A model generated the notes under the pieces. That model saw nothing but the letters and a program-made list of their open reading frames with translations. It ran no database searches and had not been told where the DNA came from. Shown piece by piece: positions 5,965 to 46,268 of a stretch of 64,000 bases of DNA; position 1 is the stretch's first letter, and each line of letters begins with the position of its first letter. Position numbers and translations under genes: made by a program. Source of the stretch: an uncultured Candidatus Saccharibacteria bacterium (GTDB lineage Bacteria > Patescibacteriota > Minisyncoccia > Phycocordibacterales > Phycocordibacteraceae); NCBI GenBank assembly GCA_964398865.1, contig CAYNOO010000001.1, positions 43,661 to 107,660 on the forward strand, written 5' to 3'.

Positions 5965-5994
5965 GCAAAAGCTTCTTCAGAAACTAGTGAATAT

Positions 5995-6028
5995 AAACCC
6001 CCGCTCTCACGAGCGGGGGTTTATATTT
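5995..6028 (+). terminator. rho-independent terminator
   Basis: aaacccccgctc tcacga gagcgggggttt hairpin followed by a T-rich tract. Confidence 0.65.
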
Positions 6029-6123
6029 TAGATACAGGGAATTGGGGTCAAGTTCCTAAGCTGGCAATGCTGGGTGCACTGCTCGAAGACTCCAGGTACA
6101 CTTCATTTGCCGCGCAACAAAAA

Positions 6124-6147
6124 GACCGACGAGACGTCGGCTTTTCT
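6124..6147. terminator. bidirectional hairpin terminator ending the tRNA-His/element transcript
   Basis: ccgacg-aga-cgtcgg stem, with an A-run on one side and a T-run on the other. Confidence 0.5.
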
Positions 6148-6160
6148 GTTGGTCATCAAA

Positions 6161-6302
6161 TGGGTGGCTACAGGGAATCGGCGTCAGCTCACTAAACTCG
6201 CAGACTCGTTAAGTGGCTCCTGCCCGGACTCGACCTTCGATTCTTTCGCTATCGCTTCAGAATCGGCTTCGCGGTCTCCGTCTTTCGATTCCCTGTAGCC
6301 AC
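6161..6302 (-). repeat. tRNA-trailer element copy 1: direct copy of the tRNA-His 3' end, 46-nt conserved core, inverted copy of the tRNA 3' end
   Basis: 6161-6180 is identical to 6351-6370 (the tRNA-His 3' end). 6286-6302 is its perfect reverse complement. The core at 6181-6226 recurs at 10913-10958 and, reverse-complemented, at 17943-17988. Confidence 0.7.
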
Positions 6303-6350
6303 GTCAAAAATATAGTCATCAAACGCGTACGCGTTTTCTTCTTTATTTTT

Positions 6351-6424
6351 GGGTGGCTACAGGGAATCGAACCCTGATCGAGAGCTCCACAAGCTCCAGT
6401 GTTAACCGTTACACCATAGCCACC
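6351..6424 (-). tRNA. tRNA-His (GTG)
   Basis: Manual fold: 8-bp acceptor stem with G-1, anticodon loop TTGTGGA, T-loop GGTTCGATTCC. Confidence 0.8.
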
Positions 6425-6460
6425 ATGTGCGAACAAACGATAGAAAATCGCTCATTCTAG

Positions 6461-6544
6461 TGCGCAGGAGAAGACTCGAACTTCCAAGCCCTTGCGGGCG
6501 CTACCACCTCAAGGTAGTGCGTCTACCAATTTCGCCACCTGCGC
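6461..6544 (-). tRNA. tRNA-Leu (GAG)
   Basis: Manual fold: acceptor GCGCAGG/CCTGCGC, anticodon stem-loop CTACC-TTGAGGT-GGTAG, long variable arm. Confidence 0.75.
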
Positions 6545-6596
6545 AGGTGTTCGTATTCTAAGTACTTTTCAACCTTTTGCAAACAAAAAAGAGGCT

Positions 6597-7166
6597 TTAC
6601 GCCTCTTTTGCTGCCTCCTTCTCTTCGTCGGTGACTGGCTCCGAAACTTCGATAGGTGCGTTATCGTTCGCAGCCGATGCTTCAGCTGCAGCTTTTTCTG
6701 CCGCGACTACTGCTTCCGCAGCAGCGGCATCTTCAAGTGCTTTTGCCTCGGCAGCGGATGCTGCTTCAGCCGCTTCGCGATCACTACCGGTAGTCAAAGA
6801 GACAAGTGTCATCTTGCGAAGCTGACGGCGCATCTCGCGCGAGACCTTATCACGGATGTAATAGAGCTTCGCACGACGTACCTTGGAACGACGCACAATA
6901 TCAATCTTATCTATCATCGGAGAGTAGAGCGGGAATATCTTCTCGACGCCGACGCCAGAGAGGGTCGCACGAACCGTGAAGGTAGCGCCAGCTTCAGTGC
7001 CGTGCTTTCGTGCGAGCACCAAGCCTTCGAACATCTGAATACGGGTCTTGCCCTTTTCCTGGATTTTCTGATGCACGCGAACGACGTCGCCAGCCCGAAT
7101 ATCAAGCTTTTTGCGCTCTTCTACGTTTACTGAAGAAATAGTTTTGAGATCAATTGCTACTGCCAT
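6597..7166 (-). CDS. rplS: 50S ribosomal protein L19 with Ala/Glu-rich C-terminal extension
   Basis: The VRVHQKIQEKGKTRIQMFEGLVLARKH...RRAKLYYIRD core matches L19. It is followed by about 75 aa of low-complexity A/E-rich tail. The start is probably at MAVAIDLK. Confidence 0.85.
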   Translation of the reverse strand: MAVAIDLKTISSVNVEERKKLDIRAGDVVRVHQKIQEKGKTRIQMFEGLVLARKHGTEAGATFTVRATLSGVGVEKIFPLYSPMIDKIDIVRRSKVRRAKLYYIRDKVSREMRRQLRKMTLVSLTTGSDREAAEAASAAEAKALEDAAAAEAVVAAEKAAAEASAANDNAPIEVSEPVTDEEKEAAKEA

Positions 7167-7212
7167 AGTGTCGAAAAATAACACGGGGGCGCTGTTTTAG
7201 CAACGGGGCGCC

Positions 7213-7935
7213 CTATTCCAGGGCTCCTAGCTCTTTTTCAGCATGAACAAAATCCGCTGGAAGAGGTGCCTCGAAAGTCCGCCGCTCTCCGCTTGGGAGA
7301 GTAAGTGTGAGTGACAGAGCATGGAGTGCAAGACGCTCAAAGCCAAGGGCATGCCCGCGCTTAGGCGCATACAGTGAGTCGCCAACTATAGGATGCTGCA
7401 GCGCTTTGAAATGCACTCGAATCTGATGCATCCTTCCAGTCTTCGGCTTCGCTTCCACGTACGAGAATCCTCCAGCCGCTTTCAATCTAGTCCAAGCAGT
7501 CAATGCATCTCTTAAGGGTGCCTTTGCCCCTCGCTCGGCTGAGCGGCGCCTGAAGTCAGTCTTTGAGCGACCGATGGGAAGCGCAATGATTCCATTTTCT
7601 TCTTTTAACTCCCCCCACAAGAATGCCCGATATGTTTTTTGTATCTCTCGCTCTTTGAATTGTTCTTTTAAAAAGAAAAAAGCCTTTTGATTCTTAGCGA
7701 GCACGATAACCCCTGAGGTTTGCTTATCGAGCCTGTGCACGATGCCAGGTCTATCAACGACCGTGCCGTTGGTGAGCACCAAAGGCTCCCCTACTCCCTG
7801 GGCTTTCGGGACACGCGCCATAAACCAATCAGCGAGAGTTTTTTCTTCTCTCTTGCCATCCCGATGAACCGACATGCCAGCGGGTTTACAGAGCACCATG
7901 ACGTCATCATCTTCAAAAATTATTTGCGGATTCAT
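7213..7935 (-). CDS. RluA-family pseudouridine synthase
   Basis: HRLDKQTSGVIVLAK catalytic-Asp motif, 240 aa. Confidence 0.8.
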   Translation of the reverse strand: MNPQIIFEDDDVMVLCKPAGMSVHRDGKREEKTLADWFMARVPKAQGVGEPLVLTNGTVVDRPGIVHRLDKQTSGVIVLAKNQKAFFFLKEQFKEREIQKTYRAFLWGELKEENGIIALPIGRSKTDFRRRSAERGAKAPLRDALTAWTRLKAAGGFSYVEAKPKTGRMHQIRVHFKALQHPIVGDSLYAPKRGHALGFERLALHALSLTLTLPSGERRTFEAPLPADFVHAEKELGALE

Positions 7936-7987
7936 ATGAAATAGCAGGAAGCGCCTGATACGTCTCTCTACAACCTACCACTTCTCC

Positions 7988-8665
7988 TTAAACCCCGCGT
8001 CGTCTTTCTCGGGAAGCGAATTCTGCAAGGATTGCATCGAACTCAGCTTTTTCAAAAGCTGGCCACTTGGTGTCAGTAAAAAAGAGCTCGCTATAGACCG
8101 ACTGCCATGTAAGAAAATTGGATAGACGTTTATCCCCTCCTGTGCGGATAATAAGATCGGGGTCGGAGAATTCTCCACCCCAGAGAGCCTTGCGGAATGC
8201 TTGCTCGTCCACGCTCGGGATTCCCTGAGCTAAGAGCGTATTAACTCCTACAACGATTTCAGCTCTTCCTCCATAAGACAGGGCAACAATAAGCGTTCCT
8301 TTTGCGCCACTCTTTGTGCGCTCTTCCAATTCAATCATTTTTTTCTGGAGACTCGAGGGGACTCGCTCGCGCTGACCTATGAATCGTATGCGAGCGCCCT
8401 TCTCCACAAGCTCATCAACCTCCGTACCAAAAGTGTTTTCGAAAAGCTTCATCAGGTAATCAATCTCTTCGGAAGTACGATTCCAATTTTCTGTCGAGAA
8501 TGCGTAGAGAATCAATTCCTTCACACCAACTTCTTGTATCCAAGAGACAAGCTCTTTTACTTTCTCAAGACCGCGTTTATGCCCCTCAAAGCTTGGGAGC
8601 CCATGCTCCCTCGCCCAACGGCGATTGCCGTCCATGATGATTCCGATTGATTGAATGGGTTTCAT
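7988..8665 (-). CDS. uppS: undecaprenyl diphosphate synthase (isoprenyl transferase)
   Basis: IIMDGNRRWA, ILYAFSTENW and the C-terminal RLSNFLTWQS motif. Confidence 0.9.
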   Translation of the reverse strand: MKPIQSIGIIMDGNRRWAREHGLPSFEGHKRGLEKVKELVSWIQEVGVKELILYAFSTENWNRTSEEIDYLMKLFENTFGTEVDELVEKGARIRFIGQRERVPSSLQKKMIELEERTKSGAKGTLIVALSYGGRAEIVVGVNTLLAQGIPSVDEQAFRKALWGGEFSDPDLIIRTGGDKRLSNFLTWQSVYSELFFTDTKWPAFEKAEFDAILAEFASRERRRGV

Positions 8666-8727
8666 GTAACTACGGATAGAGAAACTCGCGTGCGATCGTT
8701 ATAGTTTCCGACACAATACCTCACTTG

Positions 8728-8800
8728 TGGGCGATGCAGGACTCGAACCTGCGACATCTTCAGTGTAAATGAAGCGCTCTACCAACTGAGCTAATCGCCC
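8728..8800 (-). tRNA. tRNA-Val (TAC)
   Basis: Manual fold: GGGCGAT acceptor, anticodon loop TTTACAC, encoded CCA. Confidence 0.8.
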
Positions 8801-8973
8801 ATTTTCTTATTATGCCCTCAAACCAGGGTTTGTGTAAATGAAACGACTATCCGCACCAAAAATAAACGCATCTGGTACTATAGCCTCATGATTCACAACA
8901 GCCGCAGAAAAAGTTGGTCTGGGTTTAATTAAGGTATTCTGCACGCTCGCATTCCGCGAGTATATTTTATTTA

Positions 8974-9669
8974 TTGATCTATCTTACGTACGAGTATCTA
9001 ACTGGATATATGATTCAACTCTCTGAAAAAGCATTTAGGAAACTGATGATAGCGCTTGCGGTCTATCTTGCCGCTCTATTCTCAGCAAACACGCTTGGTC
9101 TCAAGATTATGCCGTTCTTACTCGGTTCGCATCTGTCAGTCGCGGTATTTTCCTTCCCTATCGTCTTTCTTATGACCGACATCATCGGAGAAGTCTACGG
9201 CAAGAAAGTGGCTAAACTCTTCGTGCTCGCCGGATTCATCGCGACAGCGCTTTTTATTGGATATTCCTTCCTCTCTCTTGCAATGCCTTGGTCAGATGCG
9301 GGTCTCTGGGCAAAAGACGGCTACAATCAGATTTTCGGAATCTCAGTTCGCATCGCCATAGCTTCACTCGTTGCCTTCATTATCGCTGAATACCAGGACG
9401 TCATCTCTTTCTTCTTTTTCCGCAATCGGTTCGGTGAGAAACATTTCTGGCTTCGCTCCACACTCTCTAACATCTGGTCGCAGTTCTTGGATTCAGCAAT
9501 CTTCATGGTTATCGCCTTCGCAGGAATCTATGCAACCCCTACTCTAATCAGCATCATCATCACGTGGTGGCTCTATAAGGTGGCTATGGGAATTCTCTAT
9601 ACCCCCCTTTCGTATCTCGGCATGTATCTTCTTCGACACGGTGAGACAGAAAAAACCATCACTCCGTAA
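8974..9669 (+). CDS. YhhQ/DUF165 family transporter (queuosine precursor transporter-like)
   Basis: Polytopic membrane protein with FPIVFLMTDIIGEVYG, typical of YhhQ-family proteins. The true start may be internal. Confidence 0.55.
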   Translation: MIYLTYEYLTGYMIQLSEKAFRKLMIALAVYLAALFSANTLGLKIMPFLLGSHLSVAVFSFPIVFLMTDIIGEVYGKKVAKLFVLAGFIATALFIGYSFLSLAMPWSDAGLWAKDGYNQIFGISVRIAIASLVAFIIAEYQDVISFFFFRNRFGEKHFWLRSTLSNIWSQFLDSAIFMVIAFAGIYATPTLISIIITWWLYKVAMGILYTPLSYLGMYLLRHGETEKTITP

Positions 9670-10174
9670 TGCACGCTTCATAGGTTACGTCGCATCTTCG
9701 ATTGACGGACGTATTTCTCTTGCAGCAAAAAAACGCCCCGACTGGACGAGTGCGGAAGATTGGAAATTCTTCCAGAACAAACTCGCTCTATCGGACGCGG
9801 TAGTCGTAGGGCGCAATACCTACGAAGCAGCTAAAACACGCCTTCAGAAAAGAAATACATACGTGCTTTCAAGCAAGGTCAAAAACCCTGTGCGTCGAGG
9901 ACATGTTACGTTTGTGAACCCGAAGCGCACAGATATCGCCACACTCCTTAAGGGTTACAAAAACGTTGCAGTGATAGGCGGTGCGCGCGTGTACCAAGAG
10001 ATGCTCGATAAGAATTTGCTTGATGAACTCTACCTCACTATAGAGCCACTTGTGTTTGGTCGTGGAACCCCGATGTTTGCGGGTGGTTCCAAAACACGAA
10101 AATTCAAACTGGTATCAGTAAAAAAACTAAATGCGACGGGCAGCATACTTCTTCGCTATCAAGTGATACGATAA
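9641..10174 (+). CDS. RibD C-terminal domain / dihydrofolate-reductase-like reductase
   Basis: IGYVASSIDGRIS...DWKFF...VVGRNTYE...VLSS pattern of the RibD_C / DHFR-like family. Confidence 0.5.
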   Translation: MRQKKPSLRNARFIGYVASSIDGRISLAAKKRPDWTSAEDWKFFQNKLALSDAVVVGRNTYEAAKTRLQKRNTYVLSSKVKNPVRRGHVTFVNPKRTDIATLLKGYKNVAVIGGARVYQEMLDKNLLDELYLTIEPLVFGRGTPMFAGGSKTRKFKLVSVKKLNATGSILLRYQVIR

Positions 10175-10180
10175 CCGCCT

Positions 10181-10888
10181 GTGAAAATCACACCGATAAA
10201 GACACGCATCTTCAAGAATGAAGAAAATCTCTCCGAGTTCATTATCGAGCATATAAAAAAGATTCCCGATGAAGCAATACTCGTCATTGCTTCTAAAATC
10301 GTCGCCCTCTCAGAAAACCACCTTGTTCAACATTCGAACGTTGAACAAGGTGGTGAGCGGTTGATAAAAGATGAGAGCGTATGGGCAATTAAATCCGGGA
10401 ACATGTGGCTCACCGAGAAAGACGGAATGATTATGGCGAATGCCGGTATTGATGAATCAAATGCAGATGGAGGAATTATCCTATTGCCTGAAGATAGCTT
10501 CGATTCAGCGAAAGTTTTGCGACAAACGCTCAAAAAGAAATTCGGGTTGAAGCACCTTGGCATCGTAATCACCGATAGCGCACTCATGCCTCTTCGCGCG
10601 GGAGTGGTCGGCGCAGCTCTTGGTTATGCTGGTTTCAAAGGAGTTCGTGACTATCGTGGCAAGAAAGATATTTTCGGACGCACACTCAAGATGTCCCGCA
10701 CTAATATTGCAGACAGTCTCGCAACTGCAGCAACATTGGTTATGGGCGAAGGGGCAGAGCGACAACCGCTCGCCGTTATCTTGGATGCGCCAGTGGAGTT
10801 CAGTGAAAAAATCAACCGGGAAGAGACACAAATCGCAGCGAAAGATGATATCTTTTGGCCGTTGTTGAAAAGAAGAAAAAAGTCTTAA
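10181..10888 (+). CDS. CofE-like F420-0:gamma-glutamyl ligase family protein
   Basis: IASKIVALSE and MANAGIDESN motifs characteristic of the CofE/F420 ligase fold. Confidence 0.5.
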   Translation: MKITPIKTRIFKNEENLSEFIIEHIKKIPDEAILVIASKIVALSENHLVQHSNVEQGGERLIKDESVWAIKSGNMWLTEKDGMIMANAGIDESNADGGIILLPEDSFDSAKVLRQTLKKKFGLKHLGIVITDSALMPLRAGVVGAALGYAGFKGVRDYRGKKDIFGRTLKMSRTNIADSLATAATLVMGEGAERQPLAVILDAPVEFSEKINREETQIAAKDDIFWPLLKRRKKS

Positions 10889-10893
10889 GATTG

Positions 10894-11054
10894 GTGCCCC
10901 CTGCAGGAATCGGCGTCAGCTCACTAAGCTCGCGGACTCGCTAAGTGGCTCCTGCCCGACCTCGCCTCCTTCGGCAAGCTCAGGATGGCTCCGGTTTTCG
11001 ATTCCTGGCGCACGCAAAGCAGTTTGCGTGCTCAGTGTGCACTTGCTTCGCAAG
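10894..11054 (-). repeat. tRNA-trailer element copy 2 (downstream of tRNA-Arg-TCT)
   Basis: 10894-10912 duplicates the tRNA 3' end found at 11055-11073. The conserved core lies at 10913-10958. A partial inverted copy, cgattcctgg, sits at 10999-11008, followed by two perfect hairpins that abut the tRNA. Confidence 0.7.
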
Positions 11055-11126
11055 TGCCCCCTGCAGGAATCGAACCTACATCGACGGCTTAGAAGTCCGC
11101 AGCTCTATCCATTGAGCTAAGGGGGC
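11055..11126 (-). tRNA. tRNA-Arg (TCT)
   Basis: Manual fold: acceptor GCCCCCT/AGGGGGC, canonical anticodon loop CTTCTAA, T-loop GGTTCGATTCC. One A-G mismatch at 31:39. Confidence 0.75.
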
Positions 11127-11181
11127 GTGGTTGAGAGGAAATGATACCTCAGTACAAGCTTATTTTCGAGAGATGAAAACT

Positions 11182-11523
11182 CTACTGCCCCGCCAGTGGG
11201 ATTTTGGGAACGACACTGCTACTCCCGGCTGGGTCAACAATCGGCAAGAGAGGCTCCCTATCTGCCTCATAATTCGCCTTGCGTGCACGATAAGCATTGA
11301 GAACTGATTGAATCTCACCTTCAGTTATTGTTTGCGCCGGAAACGATACGGTCTCCGTGTGGACGATAAACCCTGACTGTATGCCGAAGAACAGGTACGC
11401 CGCGTAGCAGATGAAGATGATGAGCGGGATGAATAAGAACATAAGTGTAAGAAACCAATCGCGACTAGGATTCGGTCGTGCAAATGACACTAAAAAATCA
11501 GAGATTTTCTGGAAACGATTCAT
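11182..11523 (-). CDS. small membrane protein, last gene of pilM-N-O operon
   Basis: 113 aa with one TM helix. 4-bp overlap with the upstream gene. Confidence 0.35.
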   Translation of the reverse strand: MNRFQKISDFLVSFARPNPSRDWFLTLMFLFIPLIIFICYAAYLFFGIQSGFIVHTETVSFPAQTITEGEIQSVLNAYRARKANYEADREPLLPIVDPAGSSSVVPKIPLAGQ

Positions 11524-12041
11524 GGTGTTGGTGTTTTCTCCTTTATGAAGTCAACAGCAAATGTCGCAAACCACATTTTATTATCTGACGCTTCAAATGA
11601 TGCCGTTACGAGACGGGACGCTTCTGGAAGAGTTTCAATCGCAGAGGCAAAATGCGAGAGAGCCCCAAGAGAGCCTCGGGCAGAAAAAATAACACGAACG
11701 GGTTCATGGTACGTCCAGCTGGCGGGTAGCACCGAAACGGATCCAATCGTTGCTTGCACGCCCTCGCGCTTCGCAGTAGCTTCAATTGCATCAATGAGAC
11801 GAACTGAATCACTGTCGGGCACTATGAACGTCGCAAGCTCAGTGTTACTTGACGCTGTTTCAGCGATCAATACATCCGCGCGGCGCAGCGCTTGATCGCG
11901 CGCATCGCTAGAAAATGAACTTTCCTTTGCTTTCCCGATAGTCGTGACAAATCCGGAAATGCGCATACTGAGGTATACATAACAGCCAAGTGCTCCGACG
12001 AGAAGAATGAGACCAATTAAGAGCGGGGTGAATTTTTTCAT
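11520..12041 (-). CDS. PilO-like pilus assembly protein (N-terminal TM)
   Basis: 173 aa with an N-terminal TM segment. Operonic with pilM and pilN, with 4-bp overlaps. Confidence 0.4.
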   Translation of the reverse strand: MKKFTPLLIGLILLVGALGCYVYLSMRISGFVTTIGKAKESSFSSDARDQALRRADVLIAETASSNTELATFIVPDSDSVRLIDAIEATAKREGVQATIGSVSVLPASWTYHEPVRVIFSARGSLGALSHFASAIETLPEASRLVTASFEASDNKMWFATFAVDFIKEKTPTP

Positions 12042-12586
12042 AGAGCGTTCGCATCAAACGTGAACGGTATCGAAAAATCCAAATCTGTCCCATTCACCAA
12101 GTCCGATATCGGCACTACCGCTCCACTAAAAAGACTCCCGTCTTCCAGTTTTTTACCGAAGTTCACGAGGGCAACACGCGTCTTCGCTTTTCCAGAAACA
12201 GTGATGTCTCCTGTTTTGGAGCCAGTGAAAGCGAGGGAAATACTCCGGATTTGTATATCGTCCGATACTCCGGTCGTGAGGTTAGAGAGTACGAGTGCGG
12301 TGGTTTGACTGCGCTCGTATTCTTTAAGAAGTGCCAGGCGCTCTTTCAAAAGTGAAACCTGTCGAACAATCCCTGAAGATTGATAGAGTTTTACACTCTC
12401 TGCGGACGCATCCAGTGCACGAACAGCAGCCTTGGCTTCGCTTTCTGCCAGGAAATACGATGGTGTGAGAAAAGCGATACCAACAATGCACACTGCGACC
12501 AGTACGAAAACGGCGGCACTCAAAAGCCCCGTGTAATAACGAACACGAAGCTCTCTCTGTTCTTTTGCTCCGAGAAGATTCACCAT
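12038..12586 (-). CDS. pilN: PilN-like type IV pilus assembly protein
   Basis: MVNLLGAKEQRELRVRYY N-terminus followed by a TM segment, as in PilN. Confidence 0.55.
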   Translation of the reverse strand: MVNLLGAKEQRELRVRYYTGLLSAAVFVLVAVCIVGIAFLTPSYFLAESEAKAAVRALDASAESVKLYQSSGIVRQVSLLKERLALLKEYERSQTTALVLSNLTTGVSDDIQIRSISLAFTGSKTGDITVSGKAKTRVALVNFGKKLEDGSLFSGAVVPISDLVNGTDLDFSIPFTFDANAL

Positions 12587-13638
12587 GGTAGTGTGCGGCT
12601 GCCGCGAATCGCCAAACCAATCGCGGTTGAATATTCGAGCGATTTCTGAAACTCCATCGGAGGCACGTAACTATCGAGCGAAAATGCATTCGTCCATACG
12701 TTCGCGACCACCACAGGCACTCGAAGGAATGTCTCGAGGTATTCCGGGAGCCCTCTCAAGTTCGCATTGCCTCCGCATACCAATACTTTTTCTATCGGGA
12801 GTCGCGTTATCCCATCAGCAAAGGAAACATTCCAATCACTCAGATTTCTTGCAATCTCATCTTTCATAACCGAAACCGTCGTCATGAGCGCCTCTACGAC
12901 ACTCATGTTCTCTTTGCTCATAAGAAATCCTTTTTCATTCTTCATCTTTTCTGCTGCCACTTCATCGACATTAAGATTTTTCATGATGACATTCAAAAGT
13001 GCGTCTCCTCCCATGTCTAGGCTTGCCGTGAACGACACCACGCCATTATCAGCAACAGCGATGCGTGTCGTCTGCCTGCCGAGATCAACAATCATTACTA
13101 CTCGTTTCCTATCCTCTTCGTTGAGCGCTGCACGCGCAAGCGCTTGAGACTCTACCTCGAGCGATCGCAGTGTAATACCTGCGTCATAAAACAAGCTGGC
13201 ATAGGCATCGACCATGCGTTTCGCATAGGCGGTGACTGATACAATCGTACCCGCTTGGACTTGACGTGCTACTTCGAAATCAAATATTGTCTCCGCAGGC
13301 GAGAGAGGCACGTGCGCCTCAAGTCCAAATTCTATGAGAGACCGGATGTCCCGTTCGGTTCCTGGTACAAGCGTCTGGTAGAGATAGGCTTTCCGTTCTG
13401 GGATGCTTGCGGTAGCGCTGCGAATCCCATGACGGAGCCGATAAGAGCGTAAGATGTCGACGACGGCATCGCGTTTTTCTATATCGCCATCGACGATAAT
13501 GCCCTTTGGGAGTGGAGTTTCATTAAACGACTCCACGCGAAGCCCAAGTGGAGTCTCTTTCAGGAAAACATATTTGATAGAGTTTCCGGAAACATCAACG
13601 CCTGCTGCCGGCATAGTAACCACAGTTGGTGGCGGAAA
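12580..13638 (-). CDS. pilM: type IV pilus assembly protein PilM (actin-like ATPase fold)
   Basis: VDVSGNSIKYVFL...IVDLGRQTTRIAV...VLVCGGNANLRGLPEYL pattern of PilM. The true start is likely MSFRAS. Confidence 0.75.
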   Translation of the reverse strand, partial: FPPPTVVTMPAAGVDVSGNSIKYVFLKETPLGLRVESFNETPLPKGIIVDGDIEKRDAVVDILRSYRLRHGIRSATASIPERKAYLYQTLVPGTERDIRSLIEFGLEAHVPLSPAETIFDFEVARQVQAGTIVSVTAYAKRMVDAYASLFYDAGITLRSLEVESQALARAALNEEDRKRVVMIVDLGRQTTRIAVADNGVVSFTASLDMGGDALLNVIMKNLNVDEVAAEKMKNEKGFLMSKENMSVVEALMTTVSVMKDEIARNLSDWNVSFADGITRLPIEKVLVCGGNANLRGLPEYLETFLRVPVVVANVWTNAFSLDSYVPPMEFQKSLEYSTAIGLAIRGSRTLPW

Positions 13639-13726
13639 TACCGAAAGCACACTCGCGCGAAATGACATACTCTCTATTATATAGTCGTTCCCTTCTCTGT
13701 TGCTCACTATTCCCTCTTGGGCGCTC

Positions 13727-14053
13727 TCAGCGGATGCGACTTCCTGGATCAACAAATCTAGTCGGCGATAAGAGTGCGAACGTATTCCCTTCACCAACAG
13801 CAAGAAGCATTCCGTTCGAAACCTGACCGCGGATAACGCGCGGCTCCAAATTTGTTATGAAAGGAAATTGCCTGCCGATAAGATCAGCGGGCGCAACATA
13901 TTCAGCGATACCAGAAAGAATTTGGCGCGGTGTCTCTTCGCCGAAATCAACTTCCAAACGCAACAATTTATCAGTATCAGGAACATGCTCAGCGGAGAGG
14001 ATGGTACCAATCTTGATTTCAGCACGCTTGAAATCATCTAGTGAAAGAGACAT
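13727..14053 (-). CDS. tRNA-binding domain protein (CsaA/Trbp111-like)
   Basis: FKRAEIKIGTILSAEHVPDTDKLLRLEVDFGEE...RQILSGI matches the EMAP / MetRS C-terminal-like tRNA-binding fold. Confidence 0.7.
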   Translation of the reverse strand: MSLSLDDFKRAEIKIGTILSAEHVPDTDKLLRLEVDFGEETPRQILSGIAEYVAPADLIGRQFPFITNLEPRVIRGQVSNGMLLAVGEGNTFALLSPTRFVDPGSRIR

Positions 14054-14057
14054 AGAT

Positions 14058-14441
14058 TTATTTTCTGCTCCGTTCTATAAAACTATTAAGAATTATAGCT
14101 GCTGCTTTCGCATCTACAAACGTATCATCGGAATCACGCCTAGCCTCAACGGAGCTATAGAATTCTGGTTCATAAACAACTTTCATTCCGGTTGCCTGCT
14201 CCAAATCGTTCACAAATCGGCGGGCGGGCGTCATAACTGCATTATCATTGCCATCCTTATCCTTTGACTCCCCCACCACTACCTCCGTAATATTTTCGCT
14301 TCGTATGAGTTCAACTAGCGTAGGAACGAGAGTGCGGTCACTCGGGAAAACTGCTTTAGCAAAAGCGACAGAGCCGGACTCGTCGGAAACCGCAACGCCA
14401 ACGCGTTTCGTGCCATAGTCTATACCCATGAGCTTAGACAC
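14058..14441 (-). CDS. ruvX: Holliday junction resolvase-like YqgF/RuvX
   Basis: MGIDYGTKRVGVAVSD N-terminal motif. Confidence 0.85.
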   Translation of the reverse strand: MSKLMGIDYGTKRVGVAVSDESGSVAFAKAVFPSDRTLVPTLVELIRSENITEVVVGESKDKDGNDNAVMTPARRFVNDLEQATGMKVVYEPEFYSSVEARRDSDDTFVDAKAAAIILNSFIERSRK

Positions 14442-14499
14442 CGTAGTAGAGGCAGTATAGCGCGTTGCCAGTCGACAGCGAACGGGTTACGATAGTTAT

Positions 14500-14733
14500 A
14501 TGTTCGGTTTCAACGTCGTGAGCTGGAATCTCTGGATTATTCTCGCTATCCTCTGGACTCTTCCGTGGAAAGGCTATGCCCTATGGCTTGCTGCGAGGAA
14601 CAATCATCCGCGTTGGTTCATCGCGCTTCTTTTGCTCAACACTGTTGCAATTCTTGAAATAATCTATATCTTCGCAATAGGCCGCAAGGCTGCGAGAAAG
14701 GGACCGGATACCACCTCCGCCCCAAGTTCGTAG
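14500..14733 (+). CDS. small membrane protein
   Basis: 77 aa with two hydrophobic helices. Confidence 0.35.
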   Translation: MFGFNVVSWNLWIILAILWTLPWKGYALWLAARNNHPRWFIALLLLNTVAILEIIYIFAIGRKAARKGPDTTSAPSS

Positions 14734-14749
14734 ACTCCCGGAGGAGTCG

Positions 14750-14837
14750 CATAGTGGTCTAGTGCACCTGTCTTGAAAACAGGCGTGGGGTGACCCACCG
14801 AGAGTTCGAATCTCTCCTCCTCCGCAATGATTCGTAA
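14750..14837 (+). tRNA. tRNA-Ser (TGA)
   Basis: Acceptor GGAGGAG/CTCCTCC, anticodon loop CTTGAAA, long variable arm, T-loop GAGAGTTCGAATCTCTC. Confidence 0.8.
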
Positions 14838-14890
14838 AAAGCCAGCACTGCGGTTCTTTGAATATTGGTGATTATACTTACTAAACACTT

Positions 14891-15256
14891 ATGCAGAACC
14901 CGCAAAGATCCTACAACGGAATCGTCATCAAAGGCGAGAACACCGGGACGCGACTTGGTTTCCCGACAGCAAATATCCCGCTCGAAGACATGGGGGTGGA
15001 CGGCATTTACGCCGCAACGGTCACCGTGGACGACATAGTGTACGAAGCGGGTGTGTACGCAAACCAGCGTCGCAACATTCTTGAGGCGCATCTATTGGAT
15101 TTTTCGGGTGATCTTTATGGGCAATCAATCACTATTACTCTCTACGAAAAAATCAGGGAAGAAAAAGAATTTGGCTCATTTGCTAATGAAGCTGAACTTT
15201 CTCAGACAATTGCGCAAGATATCAAGCGTGTACGTGCATATTTCAGAAAATCCTGA
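14891..15256 (+). CDS. riboflavin kinase domain protein
   Basis: GIVIKGENTGTRLGFPTANI and YGQSITITLYEKIR match the RFK fold. Confidence 0.75.
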   Translation: MQNPQRSYNGIVIKGENTGTRLGFPTANIPLEDMGVDGIYAATVTVDDIVYEAGVYANQRRNILEAHLLDFSGDLYGQSITITLYEKIREEKEFGSFANEAELSQTIAQDIKRVRAYFRKS

Positions 15257-15276
15257 TAGCGCGCTATTCTTGCAGG

Positions 15277-16203
15277 ATGGATATATTTAAAAAATACGCC
15301 CCGTTTATGGTTCTGTTCGCAGCGATGCTGTGGGCAACTGACGCGCCTTTTCGCGTCCATTTGACACACGAGCTTTCAAGCAGCTTCATTGTTCTCGCTG
15401 AGCATTTTATCGCCGTTCTTTTTATTCTTCCCATATTGATTTTCAATCTTGCGGAACTCAAGAAATTGAGACTGAAAGAGTGGTTCGCGGTCCTTTTTAT
15501 CGCTATCGGCGGAAGCGCTTTGGCGTCGGTTGCGTTCACGCAGGCGTTCCATTATCTAAATCCGTCAGTGGCGATTCTGCTGCAAAAACTGCAACCATTC
15601 ATGGTCATCGGCTTGGCAGCAGTCGTTCTTAAGGAAACGCTGTCTCGTCGCTTTTGGCTCTTTGCCACTGTGTCGCTTATAGGCGCCTACCTCATCTCAT
15701 TCCCCAACTTCATTCCTCAGACATACCCGGGCGAGACATTCAACGCCAACCTAGTTGGCGTGGGTCTCGCGCTCATCGCTGCATTCTTCTGGGGCGCGTC
15801 GACCGTATTTGGAAAAGTCGTACTGAACAAGACAAACTTTAAGGTCATGACGGCACTGAGGTTTTCAGTGGCATTCGTGTTTCTTATCTTCTTGAATATG
15901 GCTCAGCATTCATTCCCAGTATGGAGTTCCATCACGTCCACTGATTACCTCTTCATATTCATCATCGGCATGACTTCGGGGGTCGTCTCTCTCTTTATCT
16001 ACTACAAAGGGTTGGAGAACACGCGCGCATCTGTCGCCACTTTGGCAGAACTGGGATTTCCTCTTGCTGCGGTCATCGTAAACTGGCTATTCTTGGATGC
16101 TGTTCTTCTGCCAATGCAAATCTTGGGTATCGCCATTCTACTCGGAGGTGTGTATGGTCTTGCAAAATATAATAGAGAAACCGAGGCGATTAGCGCCACG
16201 TGA
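15277..16203 (+). CDS. EamA/DMT superfamily transporter
   Basis: 308 aa with about ten TM segments and a duplicated EamA-like architecture. Confidence 0.7.
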   Translation: MDIFKKYAPFMVLFAAMLWATDAPFRVHLTHELSSSFIVLAEHFIAVLFILPILIFNLAELKKLRLKEWFAVLFIAIGGSALASVAFTQAFHYLNPSVAILLQKLQPFMVIGLAAVVLKETLSRRFWLFATVSLIGAYLISFPNFIPQTYPGETFNANLVGVGLALIAAFFWGASTVFGKVVLNKTNFKVMTALRFSVAFVFLIFLNMAQHSFPVWSSITSTDYLFIFIIGMTSGVVSLFIYYKGLENTRASVATLAELGFPLAAVIVNWLFLDAVLLPMQILGIAILLGGVYGLAKYNRETEAISAT

Positions 16204-16228
16204 CGAACATGAGAAGAATTTTTCTGCT

Positions 16229-16951
16229 CTAAACTCTAAAGAGCGTTTCTCCAGCTCTTCTTTCTATTTCTTGAATGGATTTGTTGCGATGAATTATCTC
16301 GTCATTACGAACTGATCTGAAAAAATCATATTGATTCTTAGAATCGCGCCCGTACCACTCCAGGTAAGCGCTATGAATTGGTTTTTTCTTAAGCTCCTCC
16401 TCATTAGCACGTAGGAAACGATCGTATTGCTCAAAAGCATGCGCTTCGAACAGGTAGTTTAATTCAAATGCGTACCGCGCATTTAACAAATACAGCCAGT
16501 ATGCTATCCAAAAATAAAGGAAGGCGAAAATCATCGGAATGACCGTATGCAAAAACACGTTTGCTTTTTGTACCTCCTTTGCAAGAGTTGAGATAACAAC
16601 AACATGCATGGTCTCGTTGTCTTTCGCTATGCGTGCAAACTTAGCAAGAGCAGAGAGGCGCATTGCCTTTTCTTCATTGCGATAGAACATCGTAAGAAAT
16701 GTGAAAGCGGCGGAATCCCATGAATGGTAGGGTACGCGAGCAATTACCTCAATTGCTCTGAACTTCAGATACGAAGGTTCTTTCCCATACACGACGTTCG
16801 CACACCCAACGAGTAGGCGCCCGAGGATGCGCGGAAGAAAGTGGGGTTTATAGTCATCATAGGGTCGTTTGTATTCTTGGAGGACTTCGGGGTCATTGAG
16901 CTTAGTGTTCAGATCCTCAAGCGCTTTATCATGATATTCCATAGGGTGCAT
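16229..16951 (-). CDS. alternative oxidase (AOX/PTOX)-like di-iron carboxylate protein
   Basis: Four iron-ligand motifs in AOX order: IEVIARVP (E), NETMHV (ExxH), LFEAHAF (E..H) and RNDEIIH (ExxH). Confidence 0.55.
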   Translation of the reverse strand: MHPMEYHDKALEDLNTKLNDPEVLQEYKRPYDDYKPHFLPRILGRLLVGCANVVYGKEPSYLKFRAIEVIARVPYHSWDSAAFTFLTMFYRNEEKAMRLSALAKFARIAKDNETMHVVVISTLAKEVQKANVFLHTVIPMIFAFLYFWIAYWLYLLNARYAFELNYLFEAHAFEQYDRFLRANEEELKKKPIHSAYLEWYGRDSKNQYDFFRSVRNDEIIHRNKSIQEIERRAGETLFRV

Positions 16952-17032
16952 TGTAAACTACTCGGCTAAAAGAAAGGCATAAACGTATACTTCTAAAAAT
17001 GGCATGATACCTCATGCGGTAGGAACGACTTT

Positions 17033-17542
17033 TTGCAAACCTTTGTTCATTACTTTAGCTCACGGGGTATACTGGGCGGAATGGAAAACCAGGTACTCGT
17101 GAGCTGGCAGGCGCGGGAATATGAATTCCGCCCTAAGGAGCGGCAATGGTATTGGACGATAGGCATCGTCGCGATTGGTGCGGCTGTTGCTGCGTTCATT
17201 TTGAGAGACTACCTCTTCTCGCTCATCGCCATCATAGGCGGTTTCGCAGTAATGTTGATTGGTTCAAAAAAACCCTCAAAGCACAATTACAGCCTCTCAG
17301 AAAAAGGACTCTCCATTGGCACCCATCTCATTCCCTACTCCTTAATGACTAGGTTTTCCATCCGTGAAGATGAACCGAGAAAACTCAGTGTAGAAACAAA
17401 AAGGTTGACCGGCACCGTTAGCGCCCCATTGGGAGACGCCGATTACCGTCAGATACGCACTGAACTCAAAAATAGAAACATAGAGGAAGTTGAGGTCTTG
17501 GACTCATTTATAGACCAAGTCGTTGGCGGCATGGGGCTTTGA
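17033..17542 (+). CDS. hypothetical membrane protein
   Basis: Two adjacent TM helices, then a hydrophilic domain. The start may be MENQVL. Confidence 0.35.
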   Translation: MQTFVHYFSSRGILGGMENQVLVSWQAREYEFRPKERQWYWTIGIVAIGAAVAAFILRDYLFSLIAIIGGFAVMLIGSKKPSKHNYSLSEKGLSIGTHLIPYSLMTRFSIREDEPRKLSVETKRLTGTVSAPLGDADYRQIRTELKNRNIEEVEVLDSFIDQVVGGMGL

Positions 17543-17749
17543 GCAACAGTCCGTGTTTTTTTGGCGTTTTGTGGTAGATTTGTGGGACTGCTTGGGGAAG
17601 TAGGCGCTCCCGTAAGCGAAGCTTTCGAGAGCGTGTCCTGAGAAAATACGCTGACGCTTTTTTGCTCAGTCGGGTCGGAACGAAAGAGTGCTTTCGTTTG
17701 CCCCTTCTTCACAAAAGCCGCGCTTTGCGCTATTTTCCTAAGAGACTAT

Positions 17750-17821
17750 GCTCCCGTCGTTCAATGGATAGGACATATCCTTGCGGAGGATACGATGTGG
17801 GTTCGATTCCTGCCGGGAGCA
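17750..17821 (+). tRNA. tRNA-Arg (GCG anticodon)
   Basis: Manual fold: acceptor GCTCCCG/CGGGAGC, anticodon arm TATCC-TTGCGGA-GGATA. Confidence 0.75.
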
Positions 17822-18007
17822 CAAGTACAAAAACAAGCTGCGCAAGCAGCTATTTTTGTTTGTGCTCCCGGAGCACGACAACTGCTTGTCGTGCGTCAGA
17901 AATCGAAAACCGGAGCCATGTCGCCTTTGCGACAGGCGAGGTCGGGCAGGAGCCACTTAGCGAGTCTTCGAGCTTAGTGAGATGCGCCGATTCCTGCCGG
18001 GAGCACA
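17822..18007 (+). repeat. tRNA-trailer element copy 3 (downstream of tRNA-Arg-GCG)
   Basis: Partial inverted copy of the tRNA 3' end at 17860-17871. Hairpin at 17872-17894. Conserved core (reverse-complement orientation) at 17943-17988. Direct 19-nt copy of the tRNA 3' end at 17989-18007. Confidence 0.7.
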
Positions 18008-18013
18008 AATACA

Positions 18014-18046
18014 AAAAACTCCAGACAATTGTCTGGAGTTTTTTGA
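18014..18046. terminator. bidirectional rho-independent terminator (tRNA-Arg/element and rpsT)
   Basis: ctccagaca-attg-tctggag stem flanked by an A6 run and a T6 run. Confidence 0.75.
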
Positions 18047-18052
18047 TTTTAA

Positions 18053-18319
18053 TTACTTGCTGGAGGATTTCTTGAGGAGCGCGGAGAGTCGAGCCTTCTT
18101 TCTTGAAGCCGTGTTTTTCTTTATAACACCGCGCTTTGCTGCTTTATCTATAACACTATAGGCTTTCGCAAGCTCGGCCATCTGTTCTTTTTTATCCTTC
18201 CCTACAAACGTTCGAGTTTGCTTAACCCCCTCTGCCATCGCACGCTTACGACGGATATTGAAAACGCGCTTCCTCAAAGATGCGCGATGTGCCTTTTTCG
18301 CTCCTTTTGTGATTGCCAT
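18053..18319 (-). CDS. rpsT: 30S ribosomal protein S20
   Basis: 88 aa, KR-rich. The IDKAAKRGVIKKNTASRKKARL segment matches S20. Confidence 0.88.
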   Translation of the reverse strand: MAITKGAKKAHRASLRKRVFNIRRKRAMAEGVKQTRTFVGKDKKEQMAELAKAYSVIDKAAKRGVIKKNTASRKKARLSALLKKSSSK

Positions 18320-36491: not shown

Positions 36492-36723
36492 ATTTTCTTT
36501 AGTTTAAGAAGATATTCTTATTCTAATACACTGTGGACGGAGGGGGTAGCTTAAAAAGCTTTCATTTAAGCTGTATTTTATAAGTGTTTTAAAGAAAAGC
36601 TGTTTATAGCGCCACACTATTGTGTGTATAGTAACTGTTTGTATATAAGAATATTTTTTTTGAATTATTTTCCACACTTTTTCCAACAGCATTTCCAATG
36701 AGTTATTCATATCCTTTTCAACA
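36492..36723. promoter_or_regulatory. putative oriC / DnaA-box cluster in AT-rich dnaN-dnaA intergenic region
   Basis: AT-rich 230 bp with TTTTCCACA (36667-36675), TGTGGAC (36532-36538) and related TGTGTATA motifs. Confidence 0.4.
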
Positions 36724-38070: not shown

Positions 38071-38173
38071 GTAAGTTCGGTCATTATACCCGTGTGGAGA
38101 AAACAGCAAACTTGCGGAAAAGACTCCTCCGTGTTAATAAACTGTGAGATACTTGTGTATAACATTTCACACG

Positions 38174-44726: not shown

Positions 44727-44728
44727 AA

Positions 44729-45400: not shown

Positions 45401-45414
45401 AGATATAGGTTTTA

Positions 45415-46266: not shown

Positions 46267-46268
46267 AG

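What the first reader, a model, noticed from the sequence alone, without database searches (positions are those of the whole stretch)
17822..18046. Copy 3 of the tRNA-trailer element, on the plus strand in the same tRNA-then-element-then-terminator arrangement
Seen directly: this copy is downstream of a plus-strand tRNA. The core appears reverse-complemented at 17943-17988 and is followed by a direct 19-nt copy of the tRNA 3' end (17989-18007). A bidirectional terminator then follows (18014-18046). The constant orientation of the core relative to the tRNA, on both strands, argues for a functional unit coupled to the tRNA rather than random repeats.
Basis: seen in the sequence. Interest (0 to 1): 0.6.

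Follow-up and report, generated by a model that had tools for sequence, protein, structure and literature searches.

The report
Small structured insertion element behind tRNA genes
The segment is one copy of an undescribed, gene-less insertion element about 185 bases long, found in ultra-small (CPR) bacteria, that lands behind tRNA and tmRNA genes, duplicates the tRNA's 3' end so the gene stays intact, and carries a strongly conserved folded core whose closing stem is built from copies of its own target.

Summary
tRNA-Arg(GCG) lies at 17750-17822. After it come a terminator-like hairpin, an inverted copy of the tRNA 3' segment split by a 9-bp hairpin (P1), a conserved ~95-nt three-way-junction core, a 30-nt direct repeat of the tRNA 3' end plus trailer (17804-17833 = 17988-18017, 29/30), and the terminator (18012-18045).

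Two homologous copies follow tRNA-His and tRNA-Arg(TCT). About 25 more copies occur in CPR/Patescibacteria contigs, behind at least 12 tRNA species and one tmRNA. None was found in viral, phage, plasmid or Rfam libraries or in a limited literature search.

Compensatory changes support four helices, and the tRNA-sense strand is the one that folds. A close relative (S20 95% identical, tRNA 73/73) lacks exactly 184 nt, bounded by the repeat, so this is an insertion/deletion polymorphism and the tRNA does not need it.

No protein gene recurs beside independent copies, and a retron link was tested and rejected.

Best reading (confidence about 0.45): a non-autonomous, tRNA/tmRNA-targeting mobile element that works in single-stranded folded form. 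The movement mechanism is unknown, because both the direct and the inverted target copies change with each host gene.

The parts
17708..17736 (+). Promoter-like site upstream of the tRNA. It is the only one on this strand in 17550-18150.
17750..17822 (+). tRNA-Arg(GCG), intact.
   Evidence: 73/73 identical to the tRNA in L032
17804..17833 (+). Direct repeat copy 1: tRNA nt 56-73 plus about 12 nt of trailer.
   Evidence: (D11)
17836..17851 (+). Hairpin 1, terminator-like on both strands (T run to about 17861). It is part of the 184-nt insert.
17852..17871 (+). Inverted copy, part 1: complement of the trailer A-tract and of the acceptor 3' strand (GTGCTCCCGG).
   Evidence: searches (I19; 10-nt exact complement, 0/300 shuffles), sequence
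17873..17894 (+). P1: 9-bp hairpin with a CUGC loop, inserted in the inverted copy at the T-stem/acceptor boundary.
17897..17905 (+). Inverted copy, part 2, which is the 5' strand of the closing helix P0. It is the complement of tRNA nt 56-64.
17909..17942 (+). P2: a 3-bp base helix, a G.A/A.G internal loop and a variable hairpin.
   Evidence: columns 18-20 with 76-78, and 24-35 with 67-73
17943..17987 (+). Junction CGGGCAGG, then the conserved hairpin P3 (17951-17983; bulged A, U.U, tandem G.A), then junction GCGC.
17988..18017 (+). Direct repeat copy 2. Positions 17988-17996 form the 3' strand of P0. Together with the terminator that follows, it is orthologous to the trailer of the empty site.
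   Evidence: (D11)
18012..18045 (.). Bidirectional intrinsic-terminator-like hairpin shared with the convergent rpsT gene (18053-18319, minus strand).
10894..11053 (-). Copy 2 of the element, behind tRNA-Arg(TCT) at 11054-11126. The direct repeat is 19 nt (11072-11054 = 10912-10894).
   Evidence: (120.5 bits)
6161..6350 (-). Copy 1 of the element, behind tRNA-His at 6351-6423. It has a 20-nt direct repeat and a contiguous 17-nt inverted copy. A sense-strand terminator follows at 6141-6125.
   Evidence: D6, I10; 104.3 bits
6033..6100 (-). Degenerate fourth copy, in tandem after copy 1.
   Evidence: (D10); not detected by the model

Best explanation
Positions 17823-18017 hold one copy of a family of small (about 130-190 nt) insertion elements without any open reading frame. 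The family is specific to CPR/Patescibacteria and sits directly 3' of tRNA and tmRNA genes.

In the orientation of the tRNA, each copy has these parts in order:
- often, a hairpin that looks like an intrinsic terminator;
- a reverse-complement copy of the host gene's 3' segment, split in one subtype by an inherited 9-bp hairpin, P1;
- a conserved core of about 95 nt that folds as a three-way junction (P2, and P3 with tandem G.A pairs);
- a direct copy of host nt 56-73.

Shown:
- It is a discrete insertion/deletion unit bounded by a duplication of the tRNA segment from the T-loop to the 3' end, so the tRNA stays intact. This is the same geometry as attL/attR of islands that integrate into tRNA genes.
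- The tRNA-sense strand folds so that the inverted copy pairs with the downstream direct copy (helix P0) and closes the junction. Compensatory changes maintain the helices.

Inferred:
- The folded single strand is most simply the read-through transcript from the tRNA promoter. A single-stranded DNA form is not excluded.
- This folded strand is the cis-acting part of a non-autonomous mobile element that is moved in trans.
- The stem made of the target copy and its complement mimics the duplex of the tRNA gene's 3' segment, much as the folded attachment sites of CTX phage or of integron cassettes do. Recombination with the T-loop region of a tRNA or tmRNA gene would then give the observed order: target copy, hairpin, inverted copy, core, target copy.

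Not explained: the enzyme involved, and how both arms are rewritten for each new host gene.
For: Insertion polymorphism:
- L032 (S20 95% identical, tRNA 73/73 identical, orthologous terminator) lacks exactly 184 nt and has one copy of the 30-nt repeat.
- L033 also lacks the element at tRNA-Arg(GCG).
- L035 has a copy at tRNA-Lys, a site that is empty in the window and in L033.

Structure:
- 93.5% of cells are paired against 80.5% in shuffles and about 30% in slide controls.
- 15 of 30 pairs show changes on both sides. One example is column pair 19:77, seen as CG, AU, GC and UA; another is the P3 pair seen as GC in 15 sequences and AU in 7.
- P1 is 100% paired, with 8 of 9 pairs compensatory.
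- The orthologues L021 and L003 differ by a compensatory G-C to A-U change in P3.

Strand:
- G.U pairs number 16 against 8 A.C.
- The sense strand folds better in 19 of 22 copies.
- Conserved tandem G.A motifs are present.

Hosts:
- His, Arg (four anticodons), Glu (two), Pro, Ser (two), Gly, Asp, Lys and a tmRNA.
- The direct repeat is 15-30 nt, starts at C56 and usually ends within 2 nt of the tRNA end.

Behaviour of an insertion element:
- Tandem, convergent, orphan and degenerate copies occur.
- Different core types occupy the same tRNA in related genomes.
- The P3 sequence is identical in Saccharibacteria and Parcubacteria MAGs, yet P3 is replaceable in variants. This argues for horizontal spread.

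No protein family recurs next to independent copies, and no integrase, transposase or reverse transcriptase was found among the 30 larger window ORFs scanned.
Against: - No recombinase, nuclease or reverse transcriptase could be linked to the element.
- No free or circular form has been observed.
- A precise deletion between the direct repeats would also produce an 'empty' site, so the direction of the polymorphism rests on parsimony (two relatives lack it).
- Classical site-specific integration cannot explain how one core family carries the 3' end of at least 12 different tRNAs, nor how the inverted copy is re-specified on both sides of P1.
- The element at tRNA-Arg(TCT) is present in four syntenic genomes, which suggests long persistence rather than pure selfish turnover.
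- The direct copy stays identical to the tRNA where the acceptor-strand complement has decayed. This hints at a function the model does not provide.
Confidence: 0.45

Rival explanations
1. It is a host (or domesticated) non-coding RNA gene family. The core would be transcribed with the tRNA. Its tRNA-derived 3' end, paired to the inverted copy, would form an acceptor/T-stem-like minihelix that lets RNase P, RNase Z and the CCA-adding enzyme cut out and stabilise the RNA. The core (P2/P3) would bind a conserved cellular partner.
For: - Selection on structure, including a compensatory change between orthologues.
- Promoter-like sites lie only upstream of the tRNAs, and for copy 1 the first sense-strand terminator comes after the element.
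- In several copies P1 sits exactly at the T-stem/acceptor boundary of a 10 + 9 bp helix, which resembles tRNA architecture.
- The direct copy ends at the tRNA 3' end and remains identical to it.
- The element persists at tRNA-Arg(TCT) in four syntenic genomes.
Against: - The element is dispensable: a close relative lacks it.
- Its distribution over tRNAs and genomes is patchy.
- The acceptor-strand complement is clear in only 7 of 19 copies.
- The inverted copy is a plain complement: A lies opposite U70 of the tmRNA, so tRNA identity elements are not mimicked.
- About 60% of copies have a U-tract hairpin between the tRNA and the core.
Confidence: 0.25
2. It is a guide-RNA-like module. A conserved scaffold would be followed by an 18-20-nt 3' segment taken from the flanking target, as in TnpB right-end RNA. 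A nuclease or recombinase encoded elsewhere would use it to find tRNA genes, for homing or for regulation.
For: - The architecture is scaffold, then a variable target-identical 3' segment, then a terminator.
- Several unrelated scaffolds (S2, S4, S5) share this architecture.
- The 3' segment is conserved even where it has no intramolecular partner.
Against: - The first 9 nt of the would-be guide are paired in P0, with covariation.
- No TnpB, IscB or Cas gene was found among the 30 larger window ORFs scanned, and no protein family recurs at independent loci.
- The element has no Rfam match, including the HEARO and IS605-orfB motifs.
- Self-targeting of essential tRNA genes would be harmful.
Confidence: 0.1
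3. It is an intervening sequence in the T-loop. In read-through transcripts the tRNA 5' part would pair with the distal 3' copy, and everything between would be removed (or tolerated) as an intron-like insert.
For: - The minimum-free-energy fold of 17750-18050 pairs the tRNA 5' acceptor strand with the distal copy, and the proximal copy with the inverted copy.
- L003 has lost the proximal 3' end, leaving only this arrangement.
- The distal copy stays identical to the tRNA.
Against: - In 18 of 19 cases the tRNA is intact upstream and needs no splicing.
- There is no Rfam match to group I or group II introns.
- No bacterial enzyme is known that would splice at this site.
- L003 is a single MAG and may be a dead gene or an assembly error.
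Confidence: 0.07
4. It is a decayed scar of large prophages or islands that once integrated at these tRNAs (leftover att sites), or chance and terminator-related repeats.
For: - tRNA and tmRNA 3' ends are classic integration sites.
- Direct repeats of the 3' segment and tandem arrays are typical of them.
- L035 carries a real island with a serine recombinase at tRNA-Arg(GCG).
Against: - The size is uniform and small.
- The core is conserved, with covariation, across about 30 copies and many tRNAs.
- The indel against L032 is a clean 184 nt.
- Chance is excluded.
Confidence: 0.03

Closest known systems
Genomic islands and prophages that integrate into the T-loop region of tRNA and tmRNA genes using tyrosine integrases. 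The sublocation classes are from my own knowledge (Williams 2002). One example, ssrA islands of Dehalococcoides, is PMC3146451 (abstract seen).
   Same: - The targets are tRNA and tmRNA genes.
- The insert is flanked by a direct repeat running from the T-loop to the gene's 3' end, so the gene is restored.
- Tandem accretion occurs behind one gene.
- Presence and absence vary between relatives.
   Different: - The size is 130-190 nt instead of kilobases.
- There is no integrase or any other gene.
- One core family is found behind at least 12 different tRNAs.
- The element contains an inverted copy of the att segment and a conserved structured core.
Elements that integrate as folded single-stranded DNA: CTX phage and other Xer-exploiting elements, and integron attC sites (own knowledge).
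   Same: - Two inverted copies of the attachment sequence can fold into a duplex site.
- The integrated order is site, loop, inverted site, then the element, then site.
- Structure is conserved rather than sequence in the stems.
- Protruding features (here P1) sit in the stem.
   Different: - The target is a tRNA segment, not dif or attI.
- The arms change with the host gene.
- No Xer or IntI involvement was shown.
- The single-stranded DNA form is not shown; the folded strand may be RNA.
MITEs and REPIN-type non-autonomous elements.
   Same: Small size, no ORF, multiple copies, terminal inverted repeats, and mobilisation presumably in trans.
   Different: - The inverted repeats are derived from the target rather than being constant transposase-binding ends.
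- The duplication is 15-30 bp and is tied to the tRNA 3' end, rather than a fixed 2-10 bp.
- Target specificity for tRNA and tmRNA genes is strict.
Right-end/omega RNAs of TnpB and IscB (IS200/IS605 family).
   Same: A structured scaffold is followed immediately by a segment that is simply the flanking target DNA.
   Different: - No TnpB or IscB gene and no IS ends.
- The target segment is duplicated and is partly paired within the element.
- No Rfam match.
Mobile tRNA introns at non-canonical positions, including the T-loop, in Thermoproteales archaea (own knowledge).
   Same: Related short inserts are spread over many tRNA genes, with sequences complementary to the neighbouring exon.
   Different: - The host is a bacterium.
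- The tRNA is not interrupted, except in L003.
- No bulge-helix-bulge motif was seen by eye in L003.
- The inserts are much longer and carry a conserved core.

Membership tests
tRNA/tmRNA-integrating island or prophage (integrase-mediated) | The insert is flanked by a direct repeat of the 3' segment of a tRNA or tmRNA gene. | tested here: met
   30-nt repeat; 15-30 nt in 16 copies; tmRNA host.
tRNA/tmRNA-integrating island or prophage (integrase-mediated) | An integrase gene lies inside the element, next to the tRNA. | tested here: not met
   The insert is 184 nt with no ORF. No integrase was found among the 30 larger window ORFs scanned. No protein family recurs as a neighbour of independent copies.
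tRNA/tmRNA-integrating island or prophage (integrase-mediated) | One element lineage uses one attachment gene. | tested here: not met
   The same core sits behind at least 12 tRNA species and a tmRNA.
MITE | Constant terminal inverted repeats that match a transposase's ends. | tested here: not met
   The inverted arms equal the host tRNA segment and differ from copy to copy (helix 1).
MITE | A short target-site duplication of fixed length. | tested here: not met
   The duplication is 15-30 nt and ends at the tRNA 3' end.
Folded-ssDNA integrating elements (CTX-type, attC) | Inverted copies of the att sequence that can form a duplex site. | tested here: met
   A 28-bp palindrome spans 17813-17871. 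P0 shows covariation.
Folded-ssDNA integrating elements (CTX-type, attC) | The active form is single-stranded DNA, and recombination is carried out by Xer or IntI. | not testable with these tools
   The only hint is a 9-fold, strand-biased enrichment of GCGAAGC, the sequence of a DNA mini-hairpin.
Any Rfam 15 RNA family (ribozymes, introns, omega RNAs, tRNA-like RNAs) | A covariance-model match. | tested here: not met
   No match to the element at the gathering threshold or at E<=5. The same holds for the variant scaffolds.
Retron non-coding RNA (msr-msd) | Lies next to a retron reverse transcriptase. | tested here: not met
   One S-like copy lies 3' of a type VII retron RT in L035. Three loci with homologous RTs have none, even with filters off. 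No RT was found among the 30 larger window ORFs scanned.
TnpB/IscB guide RNA | Encoded at the end of an IS element that carries tnpB or iscB, with an unpaired guide. | tested here: not met
   No such gene was found. Guide positions 1-9 are paired in P0.
tRNA intron | Interrupts the mature tRNA sequence. | tested here: not met
   The tRNA is intact at 17750-17822. The only exception is L003.
Structured non-coding RNA under selection (generic) | Helices supported by compensatory changes on one strand. | tested here: met

The most novel reading that the evidence does not exclude
This would be a new class of ORF-less mobile element that builds its own closing stem from its target. It would travel as a folded, rod-like single strand (RNA or ssDNA) of about 150-190 nt. 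Its stem would be a copy of the host tRNA or tmRNA 3' segment paired to its complement. Both arms would be rewritten by copying from each new target, which is a target-templated insertion mechanism with no described precedent. A related reading is that the conserved scaffold plus the tRNA-derived tail acts as a guide RNA for an unknown trans-acting enzyme.
Probability: 0.3. Interest if true: 0.9.

Novelty: categorically new. Interest (0 to 1): 0.78.

Why it matters
If confirmed, this is a previously unseen way for a tiny piece of nucleic acid without genes to colonise essential tRNA and tmRNA genes without harming them. It occurs in bacteria with minimal genomes and few known mobile elements.

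- It would add a structured RNA or DNA family to the CPR repertoire.
- It gives a concrete case in which target-derived direct and inverted repeats must be generated or maintained by an unknown mechanism.
- It could reveal a new recombinase, RNA-processing route or RNA-guided activity.
- Practically, these elements confuse tRNA annotation (split or duplicated 3' ends, as in L003). They also mark strain-level polymorphisms in CPR populations.

Tried and rejected
- **Rfam.** Scans at the gathering threshold (whole window) and at E<=5 (5900-18200), plus scans of three variant loci, gave only tRNA and tmRNA and meaningless hairpin hits.
- **Hammerhead, group II domain V, kink-turn, RNase P CR-I.** I considered each by eye. 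The motifs do not fit, and the critical bases vary or are paired.
- **Retron or reverse-transcriptase link.** An S-like copy lies just 3' of a type VII retron RT in L035. Three loci with RT homologues carry nothing similar, so this is a coincidence within an island hot spot.
- **Phage or plasmid origin.** No blastn match in 50,697 phage records or 72,556 plasmid records. There were 0 exact hits in IMG/VR, and two gapped-pattern hits there are chance (15.9 bits, and no model match).
- **Associated protein.** Clustering of 523 ORFs within 4 kb of the copies gave only syntenic housekeeping genes.
- **Own promoter.** No promoter-like site lies between the tRNA and the element in the three window copies or in L017.
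- **Inverted copy as a duplicate of the tRNA 5' strands** (a degenerate second tRNA). Rejected: it is the Watson-Crick complement of the 3' strand at positions where the tRNA or tmRNA has G.U pairs.
- **Literature.** Six searches, one of them for the core sequence itself, found no description.
- **Source contig.** The window's own source contig is not on record.

Full report
**What is at the coordinates**

ARAGORN and Rfam place an intact tRNA-Arg(GCG) at 17750-17822 on the plus strand. Reading on from the tRNA, the following features appear in order.
- The last 18 nt of the tRNA, from T-loop C56 to the discriminator, plus about 12 nt of trailer, occupy 17804-17833. This stretch recurs at 17988-18017 with 29 of 30 bases identical (D11).
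- A 6-bp GCAA hairpin with T runs on both strands lies at 17836-17851. The scan scores it as terminator-like.
- ATTTTTGTTTGTGCTCCCGG at 17852-17871 is the complement of the trailer A-tract and of the acceptor 3' strand.
- A 9-bp hairpin, P1, lies at 17873-17894.
- CAGAAATCG at 17897-17905 is the complement of tRNA nt 56-64.
- A core of about 80 nt follows.
- The second copy of the 30-mer follows the core.
- A 15-bp bidirectional terminator lies at 18012-18045. It is shared with the convergent rpsT gene.

The core is 94% and 84% complementary to segments at 10917-10967 and 6185-6239. These lie in the same position behind the minus-strand tRNA-Arg(TCT) and tRNA-His genes. A 23-mer from the core occurs three times against none expected.

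**The organism**

The window is a chromosomal stretch of a CPR (Patescibacteria) bacterium.
- It carries rpsT, polA, dnaA/dnaN, Mur ligases, PilM, a type IV pilus ATPase and a T4SS-like cluster.
- The closest S20 homologues carry Patescibacteria, Kaiserbacteria and Paceibacteria labels.
- No integrase, transposase, TnpB/IscB/Cas protein or reverse transcriptase was found among the 30 larger window ORFs I scanned.

**A family, not three repeats**

An exact 22-mer from the core hits three GTDB genomes: a Patescibacteria MAG, a Saccharibacteria MAG and a Parcubacteria MAG. A 19-mer hits 26 metagenome loci. Of these, 21 carry the element, some of them as duplicate contigs; the other five (L007, L018, L019, L024 and the degenerate L006/L008 pair apart) are chance hits, mostly in coding sequence. 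The 19-mer has no hit in IMG/VR.

A covariance model built from 22 distinct copies scores them at 97-128 bits. It also finds weaker variants.

Every typical copy has the same anatomy and lies in the same orientation behind a tRNA. The hosts are His, Arg (TCT, GCG, CCT, CCG), Glu (CTC, TTC), Pro, Ser (GGA, CGA), Gly, Asp and Lys. In L001, two tandem copies follow a tmRNA gene (Rfam tmRNA, 105.8 bits).

Of 56 tRNAs in the loci fetched up to that point, 19 have a downstream direct copy of their own 3' end. The repeat is 15-30 nt, begins at C56 and usually stops within 2 nt of the tRNA end. Copy 3 in the window is the longest.

Other, unrelated scaffolds share the same architecture of inverted target copy, scaffold and direct target copy. 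Examples are L028 230-376 and the tandem second element at L035 1930-2100. The S1 core studied here is therefore one member of a wider class.

**Structure**

On the 22-sequence alignment I defined these elements:
- P0: the inverted copy paired with target nt 56-64;
- a junction AAA;
- P2: a 3-bp base, a G.A/A.G internal loop and a variable hairpin;
- a junction CGGGCAGG;
- P3: AGC/GCU, a bulged A, CACU/AGUG, a U.U mismatch, AGC/GCU, a tandem G.A and a variable loop;
- a junction G(A)CGC.

The pair counts support this fold.
- 93.5% of cells are paired, against 80.5% in shuffles and 28-39% when partners are slid.
- 15 of 30 pairs have changes on both sides.
- Column pair 19:77 occurs as CG, AU, GC and UA with no mismatch.
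- One P3 pair is G-C in 15 sequences and A-U in 7.

P1 is present in one subtype behind at least 10 different tRNAs. It is always 9 bp with a 4-nt loop, is 100% paired and has 8 compensatory pairs. The caveat is that I cut those hairpin segments out by hand.

The orthologous copies in L021 and L003 differ by a compensatory G-C to A-U change in P3.

The folding strand is the tRNA-sense strand. G.U pairs outnumber A.C by 16 to 8. The sense strand has the lower folding energy in 19 of 22 copies. The conserved tandem G.A motifs would be C.U on the other strand.

No Rfam family matches.

**It is an insertion/deletion unit**

L032 comes from a relative whose S20 is 95% identical. It has the same gene order, a tRNA-Arg(GCG) identical at 73 of 73 positions and the orthologous terminator. 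It has a single copy of the 30-mer and nothing between. The alignment shows one clean 184-nt gap.

The sequence after the distal repeat in the window is the one that matches the trailer of the empty site. Hairpin 1, the inverted copy, P1 and the core therefore make up the insert.

A second relative, L033 (S20 89% identical), also lacks the element at this tRNA. It carries a variant element at tRNA-Arg(TCT). L035 carries one at tRNA-Lys, a site that is empty in the window and in L033.

At tRNA-Arg(TCT) four syntenic genomes all carry an element, but with different modules: the window has the type with P1, L021 and L003 lack P1, and L033 has a different P3. tRNA-His genes with identical sequence in the window and in L029 carry different subtypes.

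Tandem, convergent, orphan and degenerate copies occur in L001, L016, L023 and at window 6033-6100.

The upper part of P3 is replaceable in variants. Its identity across Saccharibacteria and Parcubacteria copies therefore points to horizontal spread rather than absolute constraint.

**The inverted copy**

The inverted copy is a true complement of the target, not a copy of the tRNA's 5' strands.
- Opposite U70 of the tmRNA, where the gene has the G3.U70 pair (5' end GGGGGUG), the element has A.
- In copies 2 and 3, the G.U pairs of the T stem are replaced by Watson-Crick partners.

In copy 3, which appears to be the youngest, the complement covers the whole 30-nt repeat, trailer included. Across the family, the acceptor-strand part is clearly recognisable in only 7 of 19 copies. 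The P0 part covaries with the host tRNA everywhere (helix 1).

The direct distal copy, by contrast, is identical to the tRNA in 14 of 16 measured copies.

I read this as follows. A full inverted copy is produced at insertion. Only its P0 part is then maintained. The distal direct copy is kept by a constraint I cannot name.

**Transcription**

In all three window copies the only promoter-like sites on the right strand lie upstream of the tRNA or tRNA operon.
- For copy 1, the first sense-strand terminator follows the element.
- Copy 2 has none.
- Copy 3 has the internal hairpin with a T run.

Read-through transcription from the tRNA promoter is thus the simplest source of a single-stranded form. 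It is untested.

The minimum-free-energy fold of the whole unit (z = -9.3) pairs the proximal target copy with the inverted copy, and the tRNA 5' strand with the distal copy. L003, which has lost the proximal copy, is locked in that arrangement. This keeps an intron-like reading alive at low probability.

**Explanation chosen**

The geometry is that of an element integrated by recombination within the tRNA or tmRNA 3' segment. The duplication starts in the T-loop and ends at the gene's 3' end. The gene is kept intact. Tandem accretion occurs, and tmRNA is also a target.

The internal inverted copy of the attachment segment recalls elements that integrate as folded single strands, such as CTX phage and integron cassettes. 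In those, two inverted half-sites fold into the duplex that is recombined, and the integrated order is site, loop, inverted site, cargo, site.

I therefore favour a non-autonomous mobile element whose conserved core and target-derived stem act in cis in a single-stranded form and which is moved in trans (confidence about 0.45).

The main rival is a host or domesticated RNA that is cut out by tRNA-processing enzymes thanks to its tRNA-like end (about 0.25). The two readings are not exclusive.

Guide-RNA, intron and scar readings are less likely, for the reasons given under each rival.

The central open problem is that no known mechanism explains how one inherited core, with P1 embedded in the inverted arm, comes to carry both arms specific for at least a dozen different host genes.

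**What did not work**

The items below are listed with their call numbers under Tried and rejected.
- A retron link was tested and rejected.
- No protein family recurs near independent copies.
- No phage, plasmid or viral match was found.
- The literature searches found no description.
- GCGAAGC, which as DNA forms a very stable mini-hairpin (my own knowledge), is 9-fold enriched on the sense strand of the elements. This is a weak hint that the folded form could be DNA.

Noticed in passing
window 6033-6100 (-): A degenerate fourth copy of the element lies in tandem after copy 1. It ends in CAATTCCCTGTA, a decayed copy of the tRNA-His 3' segment, and has its own terminator at about 5990-6025. 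The covariance model does not detect it.
   Followed up: partly
L003 2590-2775: This is the orthologue of the tRNA-Arg(TCT) locus. The proximal tRNA 3' end and the hairpin (57 nt) are deleted, so tRNA nt 1-58 are fused to the element and the only 3' end lies about 130 nt away. ARAGORN calls no tRNA here. It may be a dead gene, a MAG error, or evidence that the element can be tolerated or removed at the RNA level.
   Followed up: partly
L028 230-376 (-); L035 1930-2100 (+) and about 10940-11040 (-): Unrelated scaffolds (S2, S5) have the same architecture of inverted tRNA copy, scaffold and direct tRNA copy. They sit behind tRNA-Arg(GCG) and in tandem behind tRNA-Lys. None has an Rfam match.
   Followed up: partly
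L001 1090-1485 and 1500-1890: A tmRNA gene (Rfam, 105.8 bits; missed by ARAGORN) is followed by two tandem element copies. Each ends in a copy of the tmRNA 3' segment. The first copy is interrupted by an insertion and a run of N.
   Followed up: yes
L035 10800-18650: An island next to tRNA-Arg(GCG) carries a type VII retron (RT at 11349-12287 plus DUF3800 proteins) and a 554-aa large serine recombinase. An S-like element copy lies just 3' of the RT. Three homologous RT loci have no such copy, so the adjacency is judged coincidental.
   Followed up: yes
L004 8820-8998 and L011 12134-12281: In this variant copy behind tRNA-Arg(CCT), the flanking 49-nt repeat is the hairpin plus the start of the scaffold, instead of the tRNA 3' segment. 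It looks like 1.3 units of a tandem or circularly permuted element.
   Followed up: no
All element copies (4.6 kb pooled): GCGAAGC occurs 7 times on the sense strand, which is 9 times the background rate, and twice on the antisense strand. It mostly sits at hairpin tips. As DNA this heptamer forms an unusually stable mini-hairpin (my own knowledge).
   Followed up: partly
window 35391-38109 and 42918-53304: dnaN and dnaA lie at 35391-38109, so the window probably includes the replication origin region. A T4SS-like cluster lies at 42918-53304, with a TraG/VirB4-type ATPase and a 1434-aa TrbL/VirB6-domain protein.
   Followed up: no
L033 10368-10440 versus window 17750-17822: The tRNA-Arg(GCG) gene lies in the opposite orientation relative to rpsT in L033, compared with the window and L032. 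This is a small local inversion of the tRNA gene between close relatives.
   Followed up: no
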